Positions 24,349 to 40,350 of a stretch of DNA of 64,000 bases are shown here, one piece after another (within the stretch, counting starts at the first letter, position 1; the number at the start of each line of letters is the position of its first letter). The translations under genes and the position numbers were made by a program. The notes beneath the pieces are model-generated. The model was given only the letters and a program-made list of their open reading frames with translations. It did no database searches and had not been told where the DNA came from. Source of the stretch: Candidatus Freyarchaeum deiterrae (GTDB lineage: Archaea; Asgardarchaeota; Jordiarchaeia; Jordiarchaeales; Jordiarchaeaceae); NCBI GenBank assembly GCA_037305845.1, contig CP147778.1, positions 2,336,001 to 2,400,000 on the forward strand, given 5' to 3'.

Positions 24349-25329
24349 TTAATTGGTATTAATTTCTTTTTTTCTGGTTTTCTTTCCAGGATTTGAAGTT
24401 AAATCGTCGAATACTTTACTAACCTGCCCCGTGATATTCAGAAGTTCAGTGGGTATAACATACTTCTTTGAGCTACCCGAAGCCATATTTTTGAGCGTAT
24501 CCAAGTACTGTATTCCCAGGGTTTTACTATCAATGTCTTTCGCAACATTTTGAATGGTATCCAACGCCTTGGAGTAACCTTCAGCTTTCAGAATGGATGA
24601 TTGTCTCTTCGCTTCCGCTCTAAGAATTAGAGCTTTCTTCGTAGCTTCCGCTTTAACAATGGTTGACCTTTTCTGGCCCTCCGCTATTTTAATAGAAGAC
24701 ACCCTGGTTCCATCGGCTTCCGTTACTGTTGCTCTTCTAATTCTCTCCGCCTCCATCTGTTTTATCATTGCTTCGAGCACCTGCTGTGGAGGCATTATTT
24801 CACGAATCTCAACACTTGTTACCTTAACTCCCCACCGACTCGTAACCTCGTCCAACTTCTCCCTAAGAGTATTGTTGATACGTTCCCGTTCAGTTAAAAT
24901 ATCATCCAAACTTATGTCACCCATCACAGACCTAAGAGTAGTCTGAGATATACCCATAGCGGCACCCTTCCAATCCTCAACCTTAACAACTGAATCATAA
25001 GCATCCATTACCCTGTGATAAATGAGGACATCAACCTCTGCGGGCGCGTTATCTTTTGTTATACATTTCTGTCTTGGTACTTCGAAGAAGTTTTCTCTCA
25101 AGTCCACTTTGACTGTACGGTCGATTATGGGCGTTATGTAAACGAGTCCTGGTCCTTTAGATCCGGCTAGTGCGCGACCCAGTCTGAATACTACGGCCCT
25201 TTCGTATTCACGGTATACTCGGAGTCCGCTCAGTATAATTAGTAAAGCGATTATTCCAACTACAAAGATTGATATAAAAATTGGGTCTGTAAAAAGATTA
25301 TATTGAAATTGCAAAGTGTTTAGTGCCAT
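24349..25329 (-). CDS. SPFH/band-7 (stomatin-like) protein
   Basis: N-terminal TM, EYERAVVFRLGR, VDLRE, ITKDN, QTTLRSVMG, WGVKV..VEI, Q..AER.RRA; start set to the ATG after GGAGGAG. Confidence 0.92.
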   Translation of the reverse strand: MALNTLQFQYNLFTDPIFISIFVVGIIALLIILSGLRVYREYERAVVFRLGRALAGSKGPGLVYITPIIDRTVKVDLRENFFEVPRQKCITKDNAPAEVDVLIYHRVMDAYDSVVKVEDWKGAAMGISQTTLRSVMGDISLDDILTERERINNTLREKLDEVTSRWGVKVTSVEIREIMPPQQVLEAMIKQMEAERIRRATVTEADGTRVSSIKIAEGQKRSTIVKAEATKKALILRAEAKRQSSILKAEGYSKALDTIQNVAKDIDSKTLGIQYLDTLKNMASGSSKKYVIPTELLNITGQVSKVFDDLTSNPGKKTRKKEINTN

Positions 25330-25541
25330 TTCTTCTCCTCCCATCTGCTTCACAGTTTTTAAACTTATTTTATTATTCTCTATTAGGCTTTTAAATCTTT
25401 ATTCTCGTGCATTGCAAAACACTGTTATCTCAAGGAATTTACTTTTAAAAATTGCTTCAATTTGTTTTGCATAGGGTTTAAATCGTACTTTTACACTGTT
25501 ATAATTAGCTTTTTATTGTAACTAGGAAATCTTAGAGGTCA

Positions 25542-28223
25542 TTGACGTTGTTCTTGGCGCGTTGCTTGGATGATGGAACATTGCATAATTTTTACCTACT
25601 TGACGCTCGTATACATTTAGGTGTTGATCGAGGGCCGCCGATACGTAATTACGATTGTGCAAATTTCTTCAAGTTTTGTCAATCAGTGGAAAAAGCGTTT
25701 TTTAAGGACTTTTCGCTGTCGTCTACGGGTTTGAATTATAAGTTAGAGGGGGCGCGCATTCCCGATGGAACAGTTGGTTTTCCTCTTTCTTTGGTTGAAG
25801 GAATAACTCCTTCTCAGCTTTTTGACGAATTTTTTGTGTCAGCTTACATGAGTAGGATAACCTCTGTTAGTATGGATAGTGTAAAGATTGATGGTGACGA
25901 TGTTCAAGCTTTTACAAATAATAAGTTAATTACGAAATGGTGTGCCTTGCCTAGTATGACGCGTCTCACCGGATTCAAGTATGTGATGCCTTCGAAAGAG
26001 AGTTCGCTTGAAAACCAAATTGAATTAGCTTTGTCGCGTGAAGGGTTTTCGGGTGTTAAAATTAAATTTGATGTCTTAGAGGAGACTTTTGTAAATGTAT
26101 TAAAGTTTATGCAGAATAAAAACTCACCCATTATTGTAGAGATGTTGAATTCCGAAAAGTTGGAAACTTTTTTGAAACTGTTAAACGATGCCGTTTTAAA
26201 AATTGGTGGTATTTCGACTCCGATTATACTCAGTAGCTTTGGACAAGATTCAGATATTGACTTGCTCGGGAAAGTTTTAAGCATAGACAACATTTATGCA
26301 GACCTTTCTGCGTTAGACCTTAATCATTTAGCTGACTTTATCCTTTCAGCCAAAAAAAATATTTCCAATTGGTCTAAGAGGTTGATATTTGGCACCAACT
26401 ATCCTTTTTGTAAAATTGGTGATGTGGTGTCTACTCTAAGTTATTTTTTTAGTTCTGATTTCGTTGGAGAACCTATAGATCTTAAGAGGATACTCGGAGG
26501 GAACGCTGTGGGATTAGTTCCTCCGCGTTATAACTTGTTGACTCCTTCAATTGATGAGATGTGTACTCTGGCTATTGATAAGTATTCTGAACAGGCGGCG
26601 AAAATATTTGAAGAATTGTTAAGCTATTTCATCAAACGAGGTTTAGCAACAGTTAGTTCCTGTGATTTTTTGGTAAGAGGAGAAGATGGAGTTATTGATC
26701 TCTCAAAATATTTCTTATCTTTGAAATCGATGAAGGAACAGAATAGAGGCGTTACTTTCCTGTTCATGAAGACTCCGGGAAACGTGCCTCGTGATGCCTT
26801 AGCTATAGCGGTGCTTAATTCTAAAACCTTGAGTGCCTTTAAGAATAGGACCATTGAAAACTTTGGTGCCAACAAAACCATGAAGAATCTACTAAGCCGA
26901 GCTTCTCTCATATCCTCTGATGAAGAAATCAACAAAGTTTCAGAAATGATTACAGATGCAGTTTACAAAACTAAAACAATCAGTAAAGGCGAAATCAGTG
27001 TTTTTTCGCTTTCGGCTGCTCCCCTTAAAGAAAAGGTTGTTGGAATGAATCCTAAGGATATGAAAATTCTTGGTATAAACGATGGCGGCATTATTCTCAT
27101 AAAACCAACAGTTACTGAAAATTGGTACGCCGCTTTGGTGAAAAGCTTTGAAGACGCTTCCTCAGGTGAACTGCAAGTTAATGAGGAAATTATGAGCAAT
27201 TGGTACGTTTTTGAAGGGGATATGGCTATAATAGAAAATTACTCCGGTAAAATTGAGCTTCTTGAACAAGTAGATTTTGCTGTGGAATCTTCTGAAGAAA
27301 TAAAATTACCCGACTTCCTAGAGAAAATCGAGGGTAAAATGGATTTACTACTCGAAAAGCTAGATGGGTTTTTCATTGGAAAAGACATGAGATTCATTCT
27401 ACCCGAACTATTCTTAGACTCTCCATTCATCATACGACCAGTCCATTCTCAACCTGAAATAGAACAAAAAAAGCTAGGAATCATAAAAACTGGGAAGACT
27501 GTAATTAATTTCGTTTCAGAACAATGGGTTAAACCATACAATTTAGTCCTTGTCATCAATACGAGTGAGATCATGAAAAATTCAGATATAACTATTGAGG
27601 AATTCGAAAAAATCGCAGATCTTCTCTCTACAATAGATGCGAAATCAGTAGAGAAATTTGAAAAAAGGATCAGAGAGGGAAACATTACAAAGAATATTGC
27701 TGCGGCTTTCATTGGAGTTTCAAGTTTAAAGAATCTTTCAGAAAAAAGTAATTTACATAAAGCATCAGTTATCTCCTACTCCAATCAGAGTAATTTATTC
27801 TCAATTTTAGAAAAAGGACAAGTAACCCCATACATGGATTTTAGATCAAATAGAAAGGATTTCTCACTAAAAGTGCTCTCATCACATATAATGGACAAGT
27901 GTCAGTATCCAGAAGGAAAAGCGGCACTTAAGGAAGCAGGAGCCAAAGTTGAAGAATTCATTGAAAAAGTCGGAGAAAAAATTCCAACCCTAACAGTGCT
28001 AATCACCGCTGGAGAAAAAACAGAAAACTTTGAAATCTTCCAGGAAATAGCAGATAAGGACCCAAGAATAAAACTCGTGGTAATACAAATTGGGAAACCA
28101 GAAAATGAGAAAGAATTAAAAAGAATTATAGACTCCATAAAAGGCAAGTACATTCAAGTCGAGGAAATAGACCCGCAAAACTTGGGAATGAAGCTAATAT
28201 CCCAGCTAACAGAATTTCTATAA
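25542..28223 (+). CDS. Degenerate amidohydrolase + CDC48-N-like + degenerate vWA fusion protein
   Basis: Colinear similarity to 40351..41811 (FYLLDARIHLG, NWSKRLIFGTNY, KRILGGNAVGLVPP) and to 41907..43367 (double-psi barrel, PYNLVLVINTSEIM). Confidence 0.75.
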   Translation: MTLFLARCLDDGTLHNFYLLDARIHLGVDRGPPIRNYDCANFFKFCQSVEKAFFKDFSLSSTGLNYKLEGARIPDGTVGFPLSLVEGITPSQLFDEFFVSAYMSRITSVSMDSVKIDGDDVQAFTNNKLITKWCALPSMTRLTGFKYVMPSKESSLENQIELALSREGFSGVKIKFDVLEETFVNVLKFMQNKNSPIIVEMLNSEKLETFLKLLNDAVLKIGGISTPIILSSFGQDSDIDLLGKVLSIDNIYADLSALDLNHLADFILSAKKNISNWSKRLIFGTNYPFCKIGDVVSTLSYFFSSDFVGEPIDLKRILGGNAVGLVPPRYNLLTPSIDEMCTLAIDKYSEQAAKIFEELLSYFIKRGLATVSSCDFLVRGEDGVIDLSKYFLSLKSMKEQNRGVTFLFMKTPGNVPRDALAIAVLNSKTLSAFKNRTIENFGANKTMKNLLSRASLISSDEEINKVSEMITDAVYKTKTISKGEISVFSLSAAPLKEKVVGMNPKDMKILGINDGGIILIKPTVTENWYAALVKSFEDASSGELQVNEEIMSNWYVFEGDMAIIENYSGKIELLEQVDFAVESSEEIKLPDFLEKIEGKMDLLLEKLDGFFIGKDMRFILPELFLDSPFIIRPVHSQPEIEQKKLGIIKTGKTVINFVSEQWVKPYNLVLVINTSEIMKNSDITIEEFEKIADLLSTIDAKSVEKFEKRIREGNITKNIAAAFIGVSSLKNLSEKSNLHKASVISYSNQSNLFSILEKGQVTPYMDFRSNRKDFSLKVLSSHIMDKCQYPEGKAALKEAGAKVEEFIEKVGEKIPTLTVLITAGEKTENFEIFQEIADKDPRIKLVVIQIGKPENEKELKRIIDSIKGKYIQVEEIDPQNLGMKLISQLTEFL

Positions 28224-29632: not shown

Positions 29633-30787
29633 ATGTCTTCAGATGAGGGCCCTACCGTGGTTTTTGAGCCATGGAGTCGAAAGGCGAGTATAGCAGGGAG
29701 TTCATACATAGTACAAATAGGAAAAGTAGATGACTATTGGTCAATAGCTATTTTCAGAGGAAACGATTTGATATCCGTAAAAAAAGTAGGTACACTTGAC
29801 CCTAATGTGCTTACCAGTATCATAAGCAGCAGCATATCTCTGCCTCTAATATCTCCCTACTCGATAGTAAGAAGTTTAGGGAATATAATAAACGAAGCTA
29901 AGGTAAGAAAATATCCTCTCACATACACCCCAAGTCCAGAGGGCGAACAACCAACAGCCCCCGCCCCTAGTCCCGCTCCAGTTTATACTCCCGCTCCTAG
30001 TCCCGCTTCAGCCCATGAGGCTGCTCCCGCGAAAATATCTGATTTTGAATCAAGGACAGGTTTCAAAAGGATGACTACACCTGAGGTAACGGAGAAAGAG
30101 GATACAGGTGCATTCTATGAATCTACTCCAGAATCCACCGAATCACAAGTTGAAGAAGAAACAAACGAGAAAGAACTAACAGAGGTCGGTAAATCCAAAG
30201 ATGTACTAGGTAGCTTCGCTTCGGGAAATGACAAAGCTTTTAGTTCTATGTTTGAGGAAGAAGAGGGACCAGCCAAACCCATGATTCATAAGGCTGGAAC
30301 TAAATCAATAGAAATACCCGAGTTGCAACCTTTAGAAAAGTGGCAAAGAGGAGTTTCTGGTTTAAGCTTCTTTTTGGACATAGCGATATCTTTTATGAAG
30401 AGTAAGCACTCTAAGGATTTATCTAAACTTTGGCAGTATTATCTAGAAGTAGAATCTAGAAACTGGAAAGCTGCCAAAGGTAGGAAATTTGAAGAAGTCG
30501 TTGGAATACTGGTAAATATAGAGAGAGCTACGGGTTCGGAGATAGAAGTGCAGGAGTTTACTGAAAGCACCTTCAAAGCTAAGGTTTCAAAGTGCCTTGG
30601 CAAAAACTATAAACAAAAGTATGGGTCCGTGCTGCCACTTCCCGATGAATTTCCCTGTGTTCTGTGCAAAATCAGAGGCGAATCAATAAGTCGCAACCTA
30701 GGCTACTCCTTTGACATGATAGAAACACCTCAGGGCTGCCAAATACAAATGAGTGCATCTCCCAAAAAAGAAAAATTAGTCATCTAA
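29633..30787 (+). CDS. Hypothetical protein: N-terminal domain, Pro/Glu-rich linker, C-terminal V4R-like Cys domain
   Basis: KVSKC...PCVLC...GCQI cysteine pattern at the C-terminus; low-complexity middle. Confidence 0.55.
   Translation: MSSDEGPTVVFEPWSRKASIAGSSYIVQIGKVDDYWSIAIFRGNDLISVKKVGTLDPNVLTSIISSSISLPLISPYSIVRSLGNIINEAKVRKYPLTYTPSPEGEQPTAPAPSPAPVYTPAPSPASAHEAAPAKISDFESRTGFKRMTTPEVTEKEDTGAFYESTPESTESQVEEETNEKELTEVGKSKDVLGSFASGNDKAFSSMFEEEEGPAKPMIHKAGTKSIEIPELQPLEKWQRGVSGLSFFLDIAISFMKSKHSKDLSKLWQYYLEVESRNWKAAKGRKFEEVVGILVNIERATGSEIEVQEFTESTFKAKVSKCLGKNYKQKYGSVLPLPDEFPCVLCKIRGESISRNLGYSFDMIETPQGCQIQMSASPKKEKLVI
29960..30011 (+). repeat. Two-copy intragenic repeat (30-nt period) encoding PAPSPA
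   Basis: CCCGCCCCTAGTCCCGCTCCAG and CCCGCTCCTAGTCCCGCTTCAG. Confidence 0.7.
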
Positions 30788-38542: not shown

Positions 38543-39424
38543 CTACTTTTCCTTTTTGGAACGACCAGTTGACTGTTTTGCTTTACTCGGCTTAAACGTG
38601 CCTACTAAATCGCGAAGATGGGACACCATTTCTTCTTTCAGGGGCTCAACGGAAACATCTTTGTCTGTGCTTTCCTTCAAAAATTCAATCGCCTGAACTA
38701 CACCGTTTTCCACAAGTATTCTCGGAATAAAATCTTCTGCCAGAAAAATCCCCTCAGGAGGATTAACACGTTCCAATCTTTTCTCAAAACTCTCCTTACC
38801 GAAAACACTTGTCTTGCTTTCCTTAATTGCGTATAACGCATGACCCGAAATAACGAGTTCTCTAGCCAGTCCTTTCGGAACTTCGATCTTCTCAAGCTTG
38901 GCCATAATCTCATTTTCATTTACTCTCGGCTGCTCAACTTGAGCTGTGGTAACTCTAGGGCTGGGCTGTGTCTTGATAGTCACTTTTGGCTCTGGTGCCG
39001 GCGCTTCCGCTGTGACTAGTTTTTGCGCTGTTGGTTTTGGTTTTGGTGTTGGCTTTGGAGTTGGTTCTGGTTCCGTTACGGGTTCTGTTACTGTTTCAGG
39101 GGCCGGAGCTGGGGCTGCTTTTGGTTTTTTGCTAGGTTTCATTCCAATTAGGGCAAGGAAGTCCGCTTCTTCGTCAGTTTCATCCATAGCTACTACTTTG
39201 TAAGCGAATCCGTATTCTGTTCTGAGACCTGATGCTTGACGCGCTCCAATGAATTTTTTGCTAACAGGGCTGTTTTTTCCCTTCCAGAGGTAGATTTTTT
39301 TGTTATTCTCAGCAATAACAATAAGTACTTTCTCACTCGATAGAACATTCTTGTCGAGTCGGTCTATATTATCCAGTTCTCCGTCTGCTCTAACATCATA
39401 GACCACAAGGCTCATCATAATCAC
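38543..39424 (-). CDS. Gelsolin-domain protein with Pro-rich linker and extra C-terminal domain (1DGelX-like)
   Basis: LSSEKVLIV...KIYLWKGKNSPVSKKFIGARQA...DETDEEADF gelsolin signature; PAPAPE/PTPKP linker. Confidence 0.8.
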   Translation of the reverse strand: MIMMSLVVYDVRADGELDNIDRLDKNVLSSEKVLIVIAENNKKIYLWKGKNSPVSKKFIGARQASGLRTEYGFAYKVVAMDETDEEADFLALIGMKPSKKPKAAPAPAPETVTEPVTEPEPTPKPTPKPKPTAQKLVTAEAPAPEPKVTIKTQPSPRVTTAQVEQPRVNENEIMAKLEKIEVPKGLARELVISGHALYAIKESKTSVFGKESFEKRLERVNPPEGIFLAEDFIPRILVENGVVQAIEFLKESTDKDVSVEPLKEEMVSHLRDLVGTFKPSKAKQSTGRSKKEK

Positions 39425-39816: not shown

Positions 39817-40350
39817 ATGCCCAAAACGGTGCCCAAAACAAGCGGTGAGAGTTTGAGTAGTTTGATTGAACATTTCAATTCAATTGGGAGCACAATCAAT
39901 GATTTGACCAAAACCTTTGGTAAGATACTAAGCGAAACTGATAATCGTCTAAAAGAAGCAGAAGCAAAAAATTCGGAACTTGAGGCATTCCTAAAAAAAG
40001 GTGATTCCTCTTTAAAAAATGATTTGGAAAAATTGAATGGGGCTCACGAGAATTTAAAGAACGAATTCGTGCAGAGAGAGGCGGAGATTCAGAGATCAAT
40101 TAAAAGCCTTACAGAGAACCAGAAGCGCATTCTATCCGCTCAGGGATCTCTTGAAATTTCTATTCAAAAACTAGAACAGAAATTTGACCAGCTAAATACA
40201 CAGATGGAAAAACGCTTACTGGAAATCTCCGAGAACATATCAAATGTAATATCTCCAGTGGAGAACTGGAACAAGGAAATGAACGCCATAAAAGCGGAGG
40301 TAGGTAGACTATCTCGTGAAATAGAAAAAAGACTTTTGGGTGAGAAGTAA
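39817..40350 (+). CDS. Coiled-coil protein
   Basis: Continuous heptad pattern over about 160 aa; stop abuts the next start (TAAATG). Confidence 0.75.
   Translation: MPKTVPKTSGESLSSLIEHFNSIGSTINDLTKTFGKILSETDNRLKEAEAKNSELEAFLKKGDSSLKNDLEKLNGAHENLKNEFVQREAEIQRSIKSLTENQKRILSAQGSLEISIQKLEQKFDQLNTQMEKRLLEISENISNVISPVENWNKEMNAIKAEVGRLSREIEKRLLGEK

What the first reader, a model, noticed from the sequence alone, without database searches (positions are those of the whole stretch)
25542..28223. Catalytically dead Rosetta-stone fusion of the amidohydrolase and CDC48-N/vWA genes found about 12 kb downstream
Seen: colinear matches GTLHNFYLLDARIHLG / GTIHRFYIVDAHHHLG, NWSKRLIFGTNYPF / NWSEKILFGTDYNYF, DFVGEPIDLKRILGGNAVGLVPP / DFPGTPEDAQRVLGSNILKLVPP, then the double-psi barrel and PYNLVLVINTSEIMKNSDITI / PFNAILLIDVSRSMLTEDMTV. 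The main functional sites are altered (HHH to RIH, catalytic D to N, KVHP to KIKF, MIDAS DxSxS to NTSEI, SDG to TAG), yet the 893-codon frame is intact. Inference: the amidohydrolase and CDC48-N/vWA proteins work as one complex, and this double pseudoenzyme is a retained scaffold or regulatory subunit. Active/inactive pairing of this kind is seen in eukaryotic Rpn11/Rpn8.
Basis: partly seen in the sequence, partly recalled or inferred. Interest (0 to 1): 0.78.

Follow-up and report, generated by a model that had tools for sequence, protein, structure and literature searches.

The report
Dead enzyme-adaptor fusion in Asgard archaea
This Asgard-archaeal gene is an old, well-conserved fused copy of a metal hydrolase and a metal-site adaptor protein in which both metal sites are lost. 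It belongs to an undescribed ligase-hydrolase-adaptor gene set, yet some lineages keep it after losing the active genes, so it is probably a binding or scaffold protein rather than an obligate partner subunit.

Summary
Observation confirmed. The 893-codon ORF (Jordarchaeia genome) is colinear with the amidohydrolase and Cdc48-N/vWA genes 12.1 kb downstream (profile E 1e-37 and 2e-40). Active amidohydrolases keep all six metal ligands (53/53); fused copies keep at most three. MIDAS is complete in 55/58 split proteins and in 0/65 fused ones. The fusion is old (Jordarchaeia, Thorarchaeia, Asgardarchaeia; one branch in both trees), under purifying selection (dN/dS about 0.13) and head-to-head with the active pair in 51/52 Thor loci. 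The Rpn11/Rpn8-like idea is weakened: three 95-98% complete Thor genomes deleted the active pair (ligase absent or degenerate) yet keep an intact fusion, in at least two independent events. Best reading: a non-catalytic scaffold or regulator derived from a probable peptide-tagging module and partly independent of it. The Cdc48-N/vWA half shares its domain order with DEPDC5/Iml1 (top Foldseek hits); homology is unproven. I found no paper on it.

The parts
25542..28223 (+). Fused double pseudo-enzyme (893 aa; probable start 25548)
25584..26531 (+). Amidohydro_2-type TIM barrel, aa ~15-330. Ligand positions read R23, H25, K173, K175, S232, N286, so only 2 of 6 are kept
26544..26981 (+). Alpha/beta middle domain, aa ~335-480, homologous to the C-terminal domain of the active amidohydrolase; fold not identified
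26997..27521 (+). Cdc48/NSF/PEX1-type N domain (double-psi barrel plus second lobe), aa ~486-660
27522..28223 (+). vWA domain, aa 661-893, MIDAS lost (N673, S675, I677, A794, A823); the family's conserved K-x-G-R-G-x-G-E loop is also lost
40351..41811 (+). Active-type amidohydrolase (H21, H23, K167, H169, H239, D300 all kept)
41907..43367 (+). Cdc48-N plus vWA protein with complete MIDAS; the most constrained gene of the set (dN/dS about 0.03)
43441..47016 (-). YbdK/GCS2-type carboxylate-amine ligase (G20-x-E22-x-E24, H173/H175, E285, R287) with a ~700-aa, probably Ig-like beta-rich tail; third core gene
47027..47818 (-). 263-aa ligase-adjacent gene; homologues lie next to the ligase in Thor and Loki-type loci (fourth conserved component); fold not identified
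47819..49096 (-). 425-aa protein with C-terminal coiled coil, weakly related to the Thor gene that is co-lost with the active pair
   Evidence: hhalign prob 78, E 1.7e-5
38543..39424 (-). Single-gelsolin-domain protein; its homologue also lies beside the module in Loki-type loci
39817..40350 (+). 177-aa coiled-coil gene directly upstream of the amidohydrolase, seen only in the window's own family

Best explanation
SHOWN: the gene is an old fused duplicate of the tandem amidohydrolase and Cdc48-N/vWA genes. It lost both metal sites, kept the folds, and is maintained by purifying selection in three Asgard classes. Its parents belong to a conserved module with an ATP-dependent GCS2/YbdK-type ligase. 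INFERRED: the module is a reversible tagging system. The ligase joins a gamma-glutamyl or similar carboxylate to an amine, probably on a protein; the amidohydrolase removes or processes the bond; the MIDAS vWA with its Cdc48-N domain binds an acidic tag or partner. The dead fusion is a non-catalytic binding platform that began as a regulator or scaffold of this module, using the inherited surfaces. It also holds a binding role that does not need the active enzymes, which is why it survives their loss.
For: Site loss versus site retention. Folds kept, pLDDT 84.5. dN/dS 0.13 (fusion) against 0.10 (hydrolase) and 0.027 (vWA) over 27 Thor pairs, and 0.11-0.17 in Jordarchaeia. Fused copies form one branch in both half-trees (100/100 and 95/86). 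Head-to-head with the active pair in 51/52 Thor loci, gap 50-163 bp in 45/46; same cluster as the ligase in Asgardarchaeia and Jordarchaeia. The ligase has an almost identical family-level distribution and lies next to the hydrolase in Loki-type and other lineages. In Thor, 73 of 80 fusion genomes have the ligase and 6 genomes lack both. Independence from the active pair. GCS2-derived enzymes can act as protein ligases (PafA; PMC2588565).
Against: No substrate or partner is identified. A small-molecule role for the ligase and hydrolase is not excluded: the nearest named families are YbdK-type ligases and aromatic-acid decarboxylases or hydrolases. No small Pup-like modifier gene stood out in the cross-lineage neighbour comparison (ORFs under 90 aa were not examined). 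The module works without the fusion in most lineages (none found with the fused profile in G137, G142, G067, G082, G126). Orphan fusions evolve somewhat faster, which could be slow decay.
Confidence: 0.5

Rival explanations
1. Obligate inactive subunit: the fusion hetero-oligomerises with the active amidohydrolase and/or vWA protein (Rpn8/Rpn11-like) and has no other job. Orphan copies are decaying relics.
For: Tight divergent synteny with the active pair. The best-kept part of the dead barrel is the beta-8/alpha-8 region shared with the active enzyme. Orphan branches are longer.
Against: Intact 854-886-aa orphans arose in at least two, probably three, separate events. Two orphans that share the deletion are 49% identical, with saturated synonymous sites (pN 0.34, pS 0.84) and no frame break.
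Confidence: 0.17
2. Metabolite or tag sensor: the ligase and hydrolase make and break a small gamma-glutamyl compound, and the dead barrel binds it without turnover and signals through its Cdc48-N/vWA half.
For: The nearest named families act on small molecules. Several barrel residues (D21, D95, N126, N321) are nearly invariant in fused copies. Small GTPase genes lie near several loci.
Against: The active-site face is not conserved across fused copies: positions 169, 239 and 300 vary freely and the invariant Arg141 of active copies is never kept. The fusion persists where the ligase is gone.
Confidence: 0.15
3. GATOR1-like scaffold: the Cdc48-N/vWA half is the archaeal homologue of the DEPDC5/Iml1 NTD-SABA module and the fusion organises longin/roadblock proteins and small GTPases. 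The enzymes are secondary.
For: DEPDC5/Iml1 chains are ranks 1-7 for the split model (E 2.8e-11 to 4.1e-10, 423-439 columns) and rank 1 for the fused model. DEPDC5 has an NSF-like NTD followed by a Sec23-like SABA domain (PMC8534245). NPRL2-like longins are reported in most Thor genomes (10.1101/2020.10.19.343400). GTPase and longin-like genes flank some loci.
Against: The margin over p97/NSF is small (E 4.6e-10 at rank 8), with TM about 0.3, rmsd about 12 A and 8-10% identity. By sequence, DEPDC5 is hit only in the barrel and below Cdc48 (E 7e-4). The Foldseek ranking may only reward the shared domain order.
Confidence: 0.13
4. Neutral leftover or assembly artefact.
For: Low identity to the parent genes (21-25%).
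Against: Full-length or contig-edge orthologues in about 90 genomes of three classes; dN/dS about 0.13; confident fold.
Confidence: 0.01

Closest known systems
Amidohydro_2 family (PF04909; e.g. CAC3332, LigW, ACMSD)
   Different: The fused copy lacks the beta-5 His, beta-6 His and beta-8 Asp, carries an extra alpha/beta domain and is joined to Cdc48-N/vWA.
DEPDC5 / Iml1 (Sea1) NTD-SABA module of GATOR1/SEACIT
   Same: Same domain order (Cdc48/NSF-type N domain, then a vWA-fold domain, no ATPase); top Foldseek hits.
   Different: 8-11% identity and a different modelled domain orientation (rmsd about 12 A); no SHEN/DEP/CTD. The Asgard parent has an intact MIDAS and travels with a ligase and a hydrolase.
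Pup system (PafA ligase, Dop eraser, Mpa/ARC reader) and YbdK/GCS2 ligases
   Same: A GCS2-fold ligase with the GhExE signature (PMC2588565), paired with a predicted amide-cleaving enzyme and an adaptor bearing an AAA-type N domain.
   Different: The predicted eraser is a TIM-barrel amidohydrolase; no Pup-like gene or AAA motor was seen in the module; the ligase scores far below YbdK cut-offs and has a long tail.
Rpn11/Rpn8 active/inactive pair
   Same: A metal enzyme kept alongside a dead paralogue.
   Different: Different fold (JAMM/MPN). Rpn8 is an obligate partner, whereas this fusion is missing from most lineages with the active genes and persists in some without them.

Membership tests
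Amidohydro_2 (catalytic member) | TIM-barrel fold | tested here: met
Amidohydro_2 (catalytic member) | Metal ligands HxH, K/H (beta-5), H (beta-6), D (beta-8) | tested here: not met
   Window copy keeps 2 of 6; no fused copy keeps more than 3 of 6; active copies keep 6 of 6 in 53/53
Amidohydro_2 (catalytic member) | Pfam gathering score 26.4 | tested here: not met
   20.3 bits
vWA with functional MIDAS | vWA fold | tested here: met
vWA with functional MIDAS | DxSxS...T...D | tested here: not met
   1 of 5 in the window copy; 0/65 fused copies complete; 55/58 split copies complete
Cdc48/p97 AAA ATPases | N domain (double-psi barrel plus second lobe) | tested here: met
Cdc48/p97 AAA ATPases | AAA ATPase domains | tested here: not met
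   The N domain is followed by vWA and the protein ends
DEPDC5/Iml1 | N domain followed by a vWA-fold (SABA) domain | tested here: met
DEPDC5/Iml1 | Pfam IML1 (PF12257) / IML1_N (PF23013) score | tested here: not met
   No match over the cut-off in G000 and none on these genes
DEPDC5/Iml1 | Specific structural closeness of each domain to NTD and SABA | tested here: inconclusive
DEPDC5/Iml1 | SHEN, DEP and CTD domains | tested here: not met
   The protein ends with the vWA domain
DEPDC5/Iml1 | Binds NPRL2/NPRL3; GAP complex for Rag GTPases | tested here: inconclusive
   The NPR2 family search rang nowhere, controls included; binding was not tested
GCS2/YbdK carboxylate-amine ligases (neighbour gene) | GhExE signature and conserved His, Glu, Arg | tested here: met
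   PF04107 over its cut-off; conserved G20, E24, H173, H175, E285, R287
GCS2/YbdK carboxylate-amine ligases (neighbour gene) | YbdK subfamily cut-off | tested here: not met
   84 bits against 176
Obligate active/inactive pair (Rpn11/Rpn8-like) | Inactive copy occurs only with the active one | tested here: not met
   G320, G322 and G314 keep the fusion without the active pair
Obligate active/inactive pair (Rpn11/Rpn8-like) | Physical hetero-oligomer | not testable with these tools
   Needs co-purification or a solved structure

The most novel reading that the evidence does not exclude
The Asgard Cdc48-N/vWA family is the archaeal source of the DEPDC5/Iml1 NTD-SABA scaffold. It began as the metal-site reader of an undescribed ATP-dependent protein-tagging system, and this doubly dead fusion records the step in which the module became an enzyme-independent scaffold.
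Probability: 0.2. Interest if true: 0.88.

Novelty: new variant of a known kind. Interest (0 to 1): 0.58.

Why it matters
The finding points to an undescribed gene module present in most of the Asgard genomes sampled (ligase in 251 of 400). It looks like a writer-eraser-reader set and is present in Loki-type genomes, so it may be testable in cultured strains. The fusion is a clean archaeal case of a pseudo-enzyme that arose by duplication and then outlived its active parents, a route to scaffolds usually discussed for eukaryotes. If the DEPDC5 likeness is true homology, it would supply the GATOR1 subunit for which I found no Asgard report: Liu et al. report NPRL2-like proteins and mention DEPDC5 only as a eukaryotic subunit, and PMC12290439 does not mention DEPDC5.

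Tried and rejected
Complex prediction of the fusion's N-half with the active amidohydrolase gave no answer (score 0.00); this is no evidence either way. DEPDC5 did not appear in the VIA top-50 lists, the IML1, IML1_N and NPR2 family searches found nothing relevant, and the atlas feature searches gave no usable hit; these blanks do not exclude homology. My idea that the fusion goes only with the long-tailed ligase was dropped: long ligases (977-1132 aa) also occur in lineages where no fusion was found, and Loki-type loci carry a separate upstream gene that begins with a beta-rich domain. My guess from memory that 47027-47818 is a dead N-formylglutamate amidohydrolase was not supported by Pfam or PDB searches. 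A shared partner gene beside the fusion in all three classes was not found: the Thor HEAT gene, the Jordarchaeia 384-aa gene and the Asgardarchaeia 790-aa gene show no detectable similarity. Literature searches found no description of the fusion or the module; one relevant paper on amidoligase systems was not held. The first genome-contig scan found nothing. G368 (77% complete, fragments of the pair) and G330 (80% complete, pair genes without the fusion) were left out as inconclusive. Limits: genomes are related, so co-occurrence counts are not independent; long branches may inflate the single-origin trees; class names for families other than Jordarchaeia, Thorarchaeota and Asgardarchaeia are inferred.

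Full report

Both sites are dead across the family. After removing near-duplicates, 53 of 53 split hydrolases keep all six ligands (H21, H23, K167, H169, H239, D300). None of 65 fused copies keeps more than three, and H239 and D300 are never kept. MIDAS is complete in 55 of 58 split vWA proteins and in none of the fused ones, which also lose the family's K-x-G-R-G-x-G-E loop.

The gene is old and selected. Orthologues occur in all 11 Jordarchaeia genomes and 80 of 87 Thor-type genomes, a few of them cut by contig ends, and more divergent copies occur in Asgardarchaeia. None was found in the Loki-type and other genomes probed with the fused profile. Fused copies form one side of a branch in both half-trees (100/100 and 95/86), consistent with one origin, though long branches call for care. 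The fusion is therefore not a recent copy of the pair next door. This genome also has a second module and a third vWA copy. Median dN/dS over 27 Thor pairs is 0.13 for the fusion, 0.10 for the hydrolase and 0.027 for the vWA; Jordarchaeia pairs give 0.11-0.17 for the fusion.

In 51 of 52 Thor loci with enough sequence, the fusion is head-to-head with the hydrolase-vWA operon, 50-163 bp apart in 45 of 46. In Asgardarchaeia the order is hydrolase, vWA, ligase, two further genes, fusion, then small GTPases. The window has the same core: 43441-47016 is a GCS2/YbdK-type carboxylate-amine ligase with conserved catalytic residues and a long tail. The ligase is found in 251 of 400 Asgard genomes, in nearly the same families as the hydrolase/vWA hits, and is absent from the same families. 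In Loki-type and other lineages it lies next to the hydrolase, with the vWA gene nearby. The 263-aa gene at 47027-47818 has homologues beside the ligase in Thor and Loki-type loci. A gelsolin-domain gene lies beside the module here and in Loki-type loci, and one locus with four vWA paralogues adds a transglutaminase gene. Named homologues are Asgard, apart from one labelled Thermoplasmatota on a 2.4-kb contig and two loci of one MAG labelled Thermoproteota.

Test of the pairing idea. Three Thor genomes (G320 98%, G322 95%, G314 97% complete) carry an intact fusion, but profile searches found no active hydrolase or vWA orthologue in them. At the locus the HEAT-repeat gene now abuts the fusion, and the pair plus three co-travelling genes are cleanly gone. 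The ligase was not found in two of them and is shortened and degenerate in the third. A metagenome contig (L053) shows the deletion seen in G320. These two orphan fusions are 49% identical, with pN 0.34 against saturated pS 0.84; genomes that keep the pair show 42-69% (median 59%) at a similar distance. A quick tree needs three changes, at least two forced by strong branches. So the fusion has been kept for a long time without its active parents, with some relaxation. This argues against an obligate Rpn8-like role. The Rosetta-stone argument is also weak on its own, because the parents were already tandem genes.

How it most likely works. Shown: a non-catalytic, folded, selected protein tied by synteny and distribution to a ligase-hydrolase-vWA module. 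Inferred: the ligase forms an amide from a carboxylate, typically a gamma-glutamyl group, as GCS2-derived enzymes such as PafA do on proteins (PMC2588565). The hydrolase reverses or trims the bond, and the MIDAS protein reads the acidic group. A protein substrate is suggested by the ligase's long tail, by the Cdc48-N domain (an adaptor-binding domain in p97/NSF, from my own knowledge) and by the gelsolin and GTPase neighbours, but it is not shown. The fusion would act as a binding platform that began as a regulator of this module and gained a role of its own (0.5). Rivals: obligate inactive subunit (0.17), metabolite sensor (0.15), GATOR1-like scaffold (0.13).

Comparison with known systems. 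Foldseek ranks DEPDC5/Iml1 chains first to seventh for the split Cdc48-N/vWA model over 423-439 columns and first for the fusion. DEPDC5 starts with an NSF-like NTD followed by a Sec23-like SABA domain (PMC8534245). The lead over p97/NSF is small, TM is about 0.3, identity is 8-10%, the IML1 Pfam models do not score, and by sequence DEPDC5 is hit only in the barrel, below Cdc48. I treat it as the same architecture with homology unproven. Published surveys report Asgard NPRL2-like and GAP-type longins but no DEPDC5 homologue in the passages found. I found no paper on the fusion or the module.

Earlier notes of this scan. One earlier report describes the same fusion in another genome, and four describe the ligase module and the DEPDC5 likeness. 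I had recorded the DEPDC5 idea before the first look-up and tested it before reading those four notes. They are not independent evidence.

Verdict. A real and undescribed double pseudo-enzyme of an undescribed Asgard module; interpretation partly supported; new variant of a known kind (pseudo-enzyme scaffold of a predicted ligase/hydrolase system); interest 0.58.

Noticed in passing
L001:9629-19768 (G000 C1 ~2917600-2927800, outside the window): Second complete module in this genome: active-type amidohydrolase, membrane protein, Cdc48-N/vWA, 1399-aa ligase, a longin-like gene and a small GTPase. Its hydrolase and vWA group with a different paralogue clade than the window's.
   Followed up: partly
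L002:8215-9516: Third, stand-alone Cdc48-N/vWA paralogue with intact MIDAS, conserved in both Jordarchaeia families, without hydrolase or ligase nearby.
   Followed up: partly
L036:13040-17649 (Thor): Beside the fusion: a coiled-coil protein, a second MIDAS-less Cdc48-N/vWA gene, a vWA-HTH-Ig protein, a cyclophilin-like gene and an E2F/DP-type winged-helix gene. The first three are lost together with the active pair.
   Followed up: partly
window 29633-30787: 384-aa gene that follows the fusion in both Jordarchaeia families: conserved N domain, Pro/Glu-rich linker and a Cys-containing C domain that looks V4R/Bet3-like by eye; no Pfam, NCBIfam or PDB hit.
   Followed up: partly
window 24349-25353: SPFH/Band-7 gene divergent from the fusion; an SPFH (plus NfeD) gene also lies near the fusion in Thor loci.
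   Followed up: no
L159:14-2140 (G314): Shortened, degenerate ligase (708 aa, His and Glu/Arg motifs altered) kept in a genome that lost the active pair; a possible further pseudo-enzyme or a decaying gene.
   Followed up: partly
L165:8380-21329: Expansion to four Cdc48-N/vWA paralogues with a ligase, a 492-aa gene (probably the hydrolase) and a transglutaminase-core gene.
   Followed up: no
L061:8848-10344 (G120): The active vWA gene is split into two frames (190 + 302 aa) in one close relative; real break or assembly error not checked.
   Followed up: no
L051:8193-9440: An IS605/TnpB element sits between the fusion and the hydrolase in one Thor-type genome; a Cmr-type CRISPR gene cluster lies downstream.
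   Followed up: no
window 56904-57518: 204-aa ORF with a weak match to the split vWA profile (E 7e-7).
   Followed up: no
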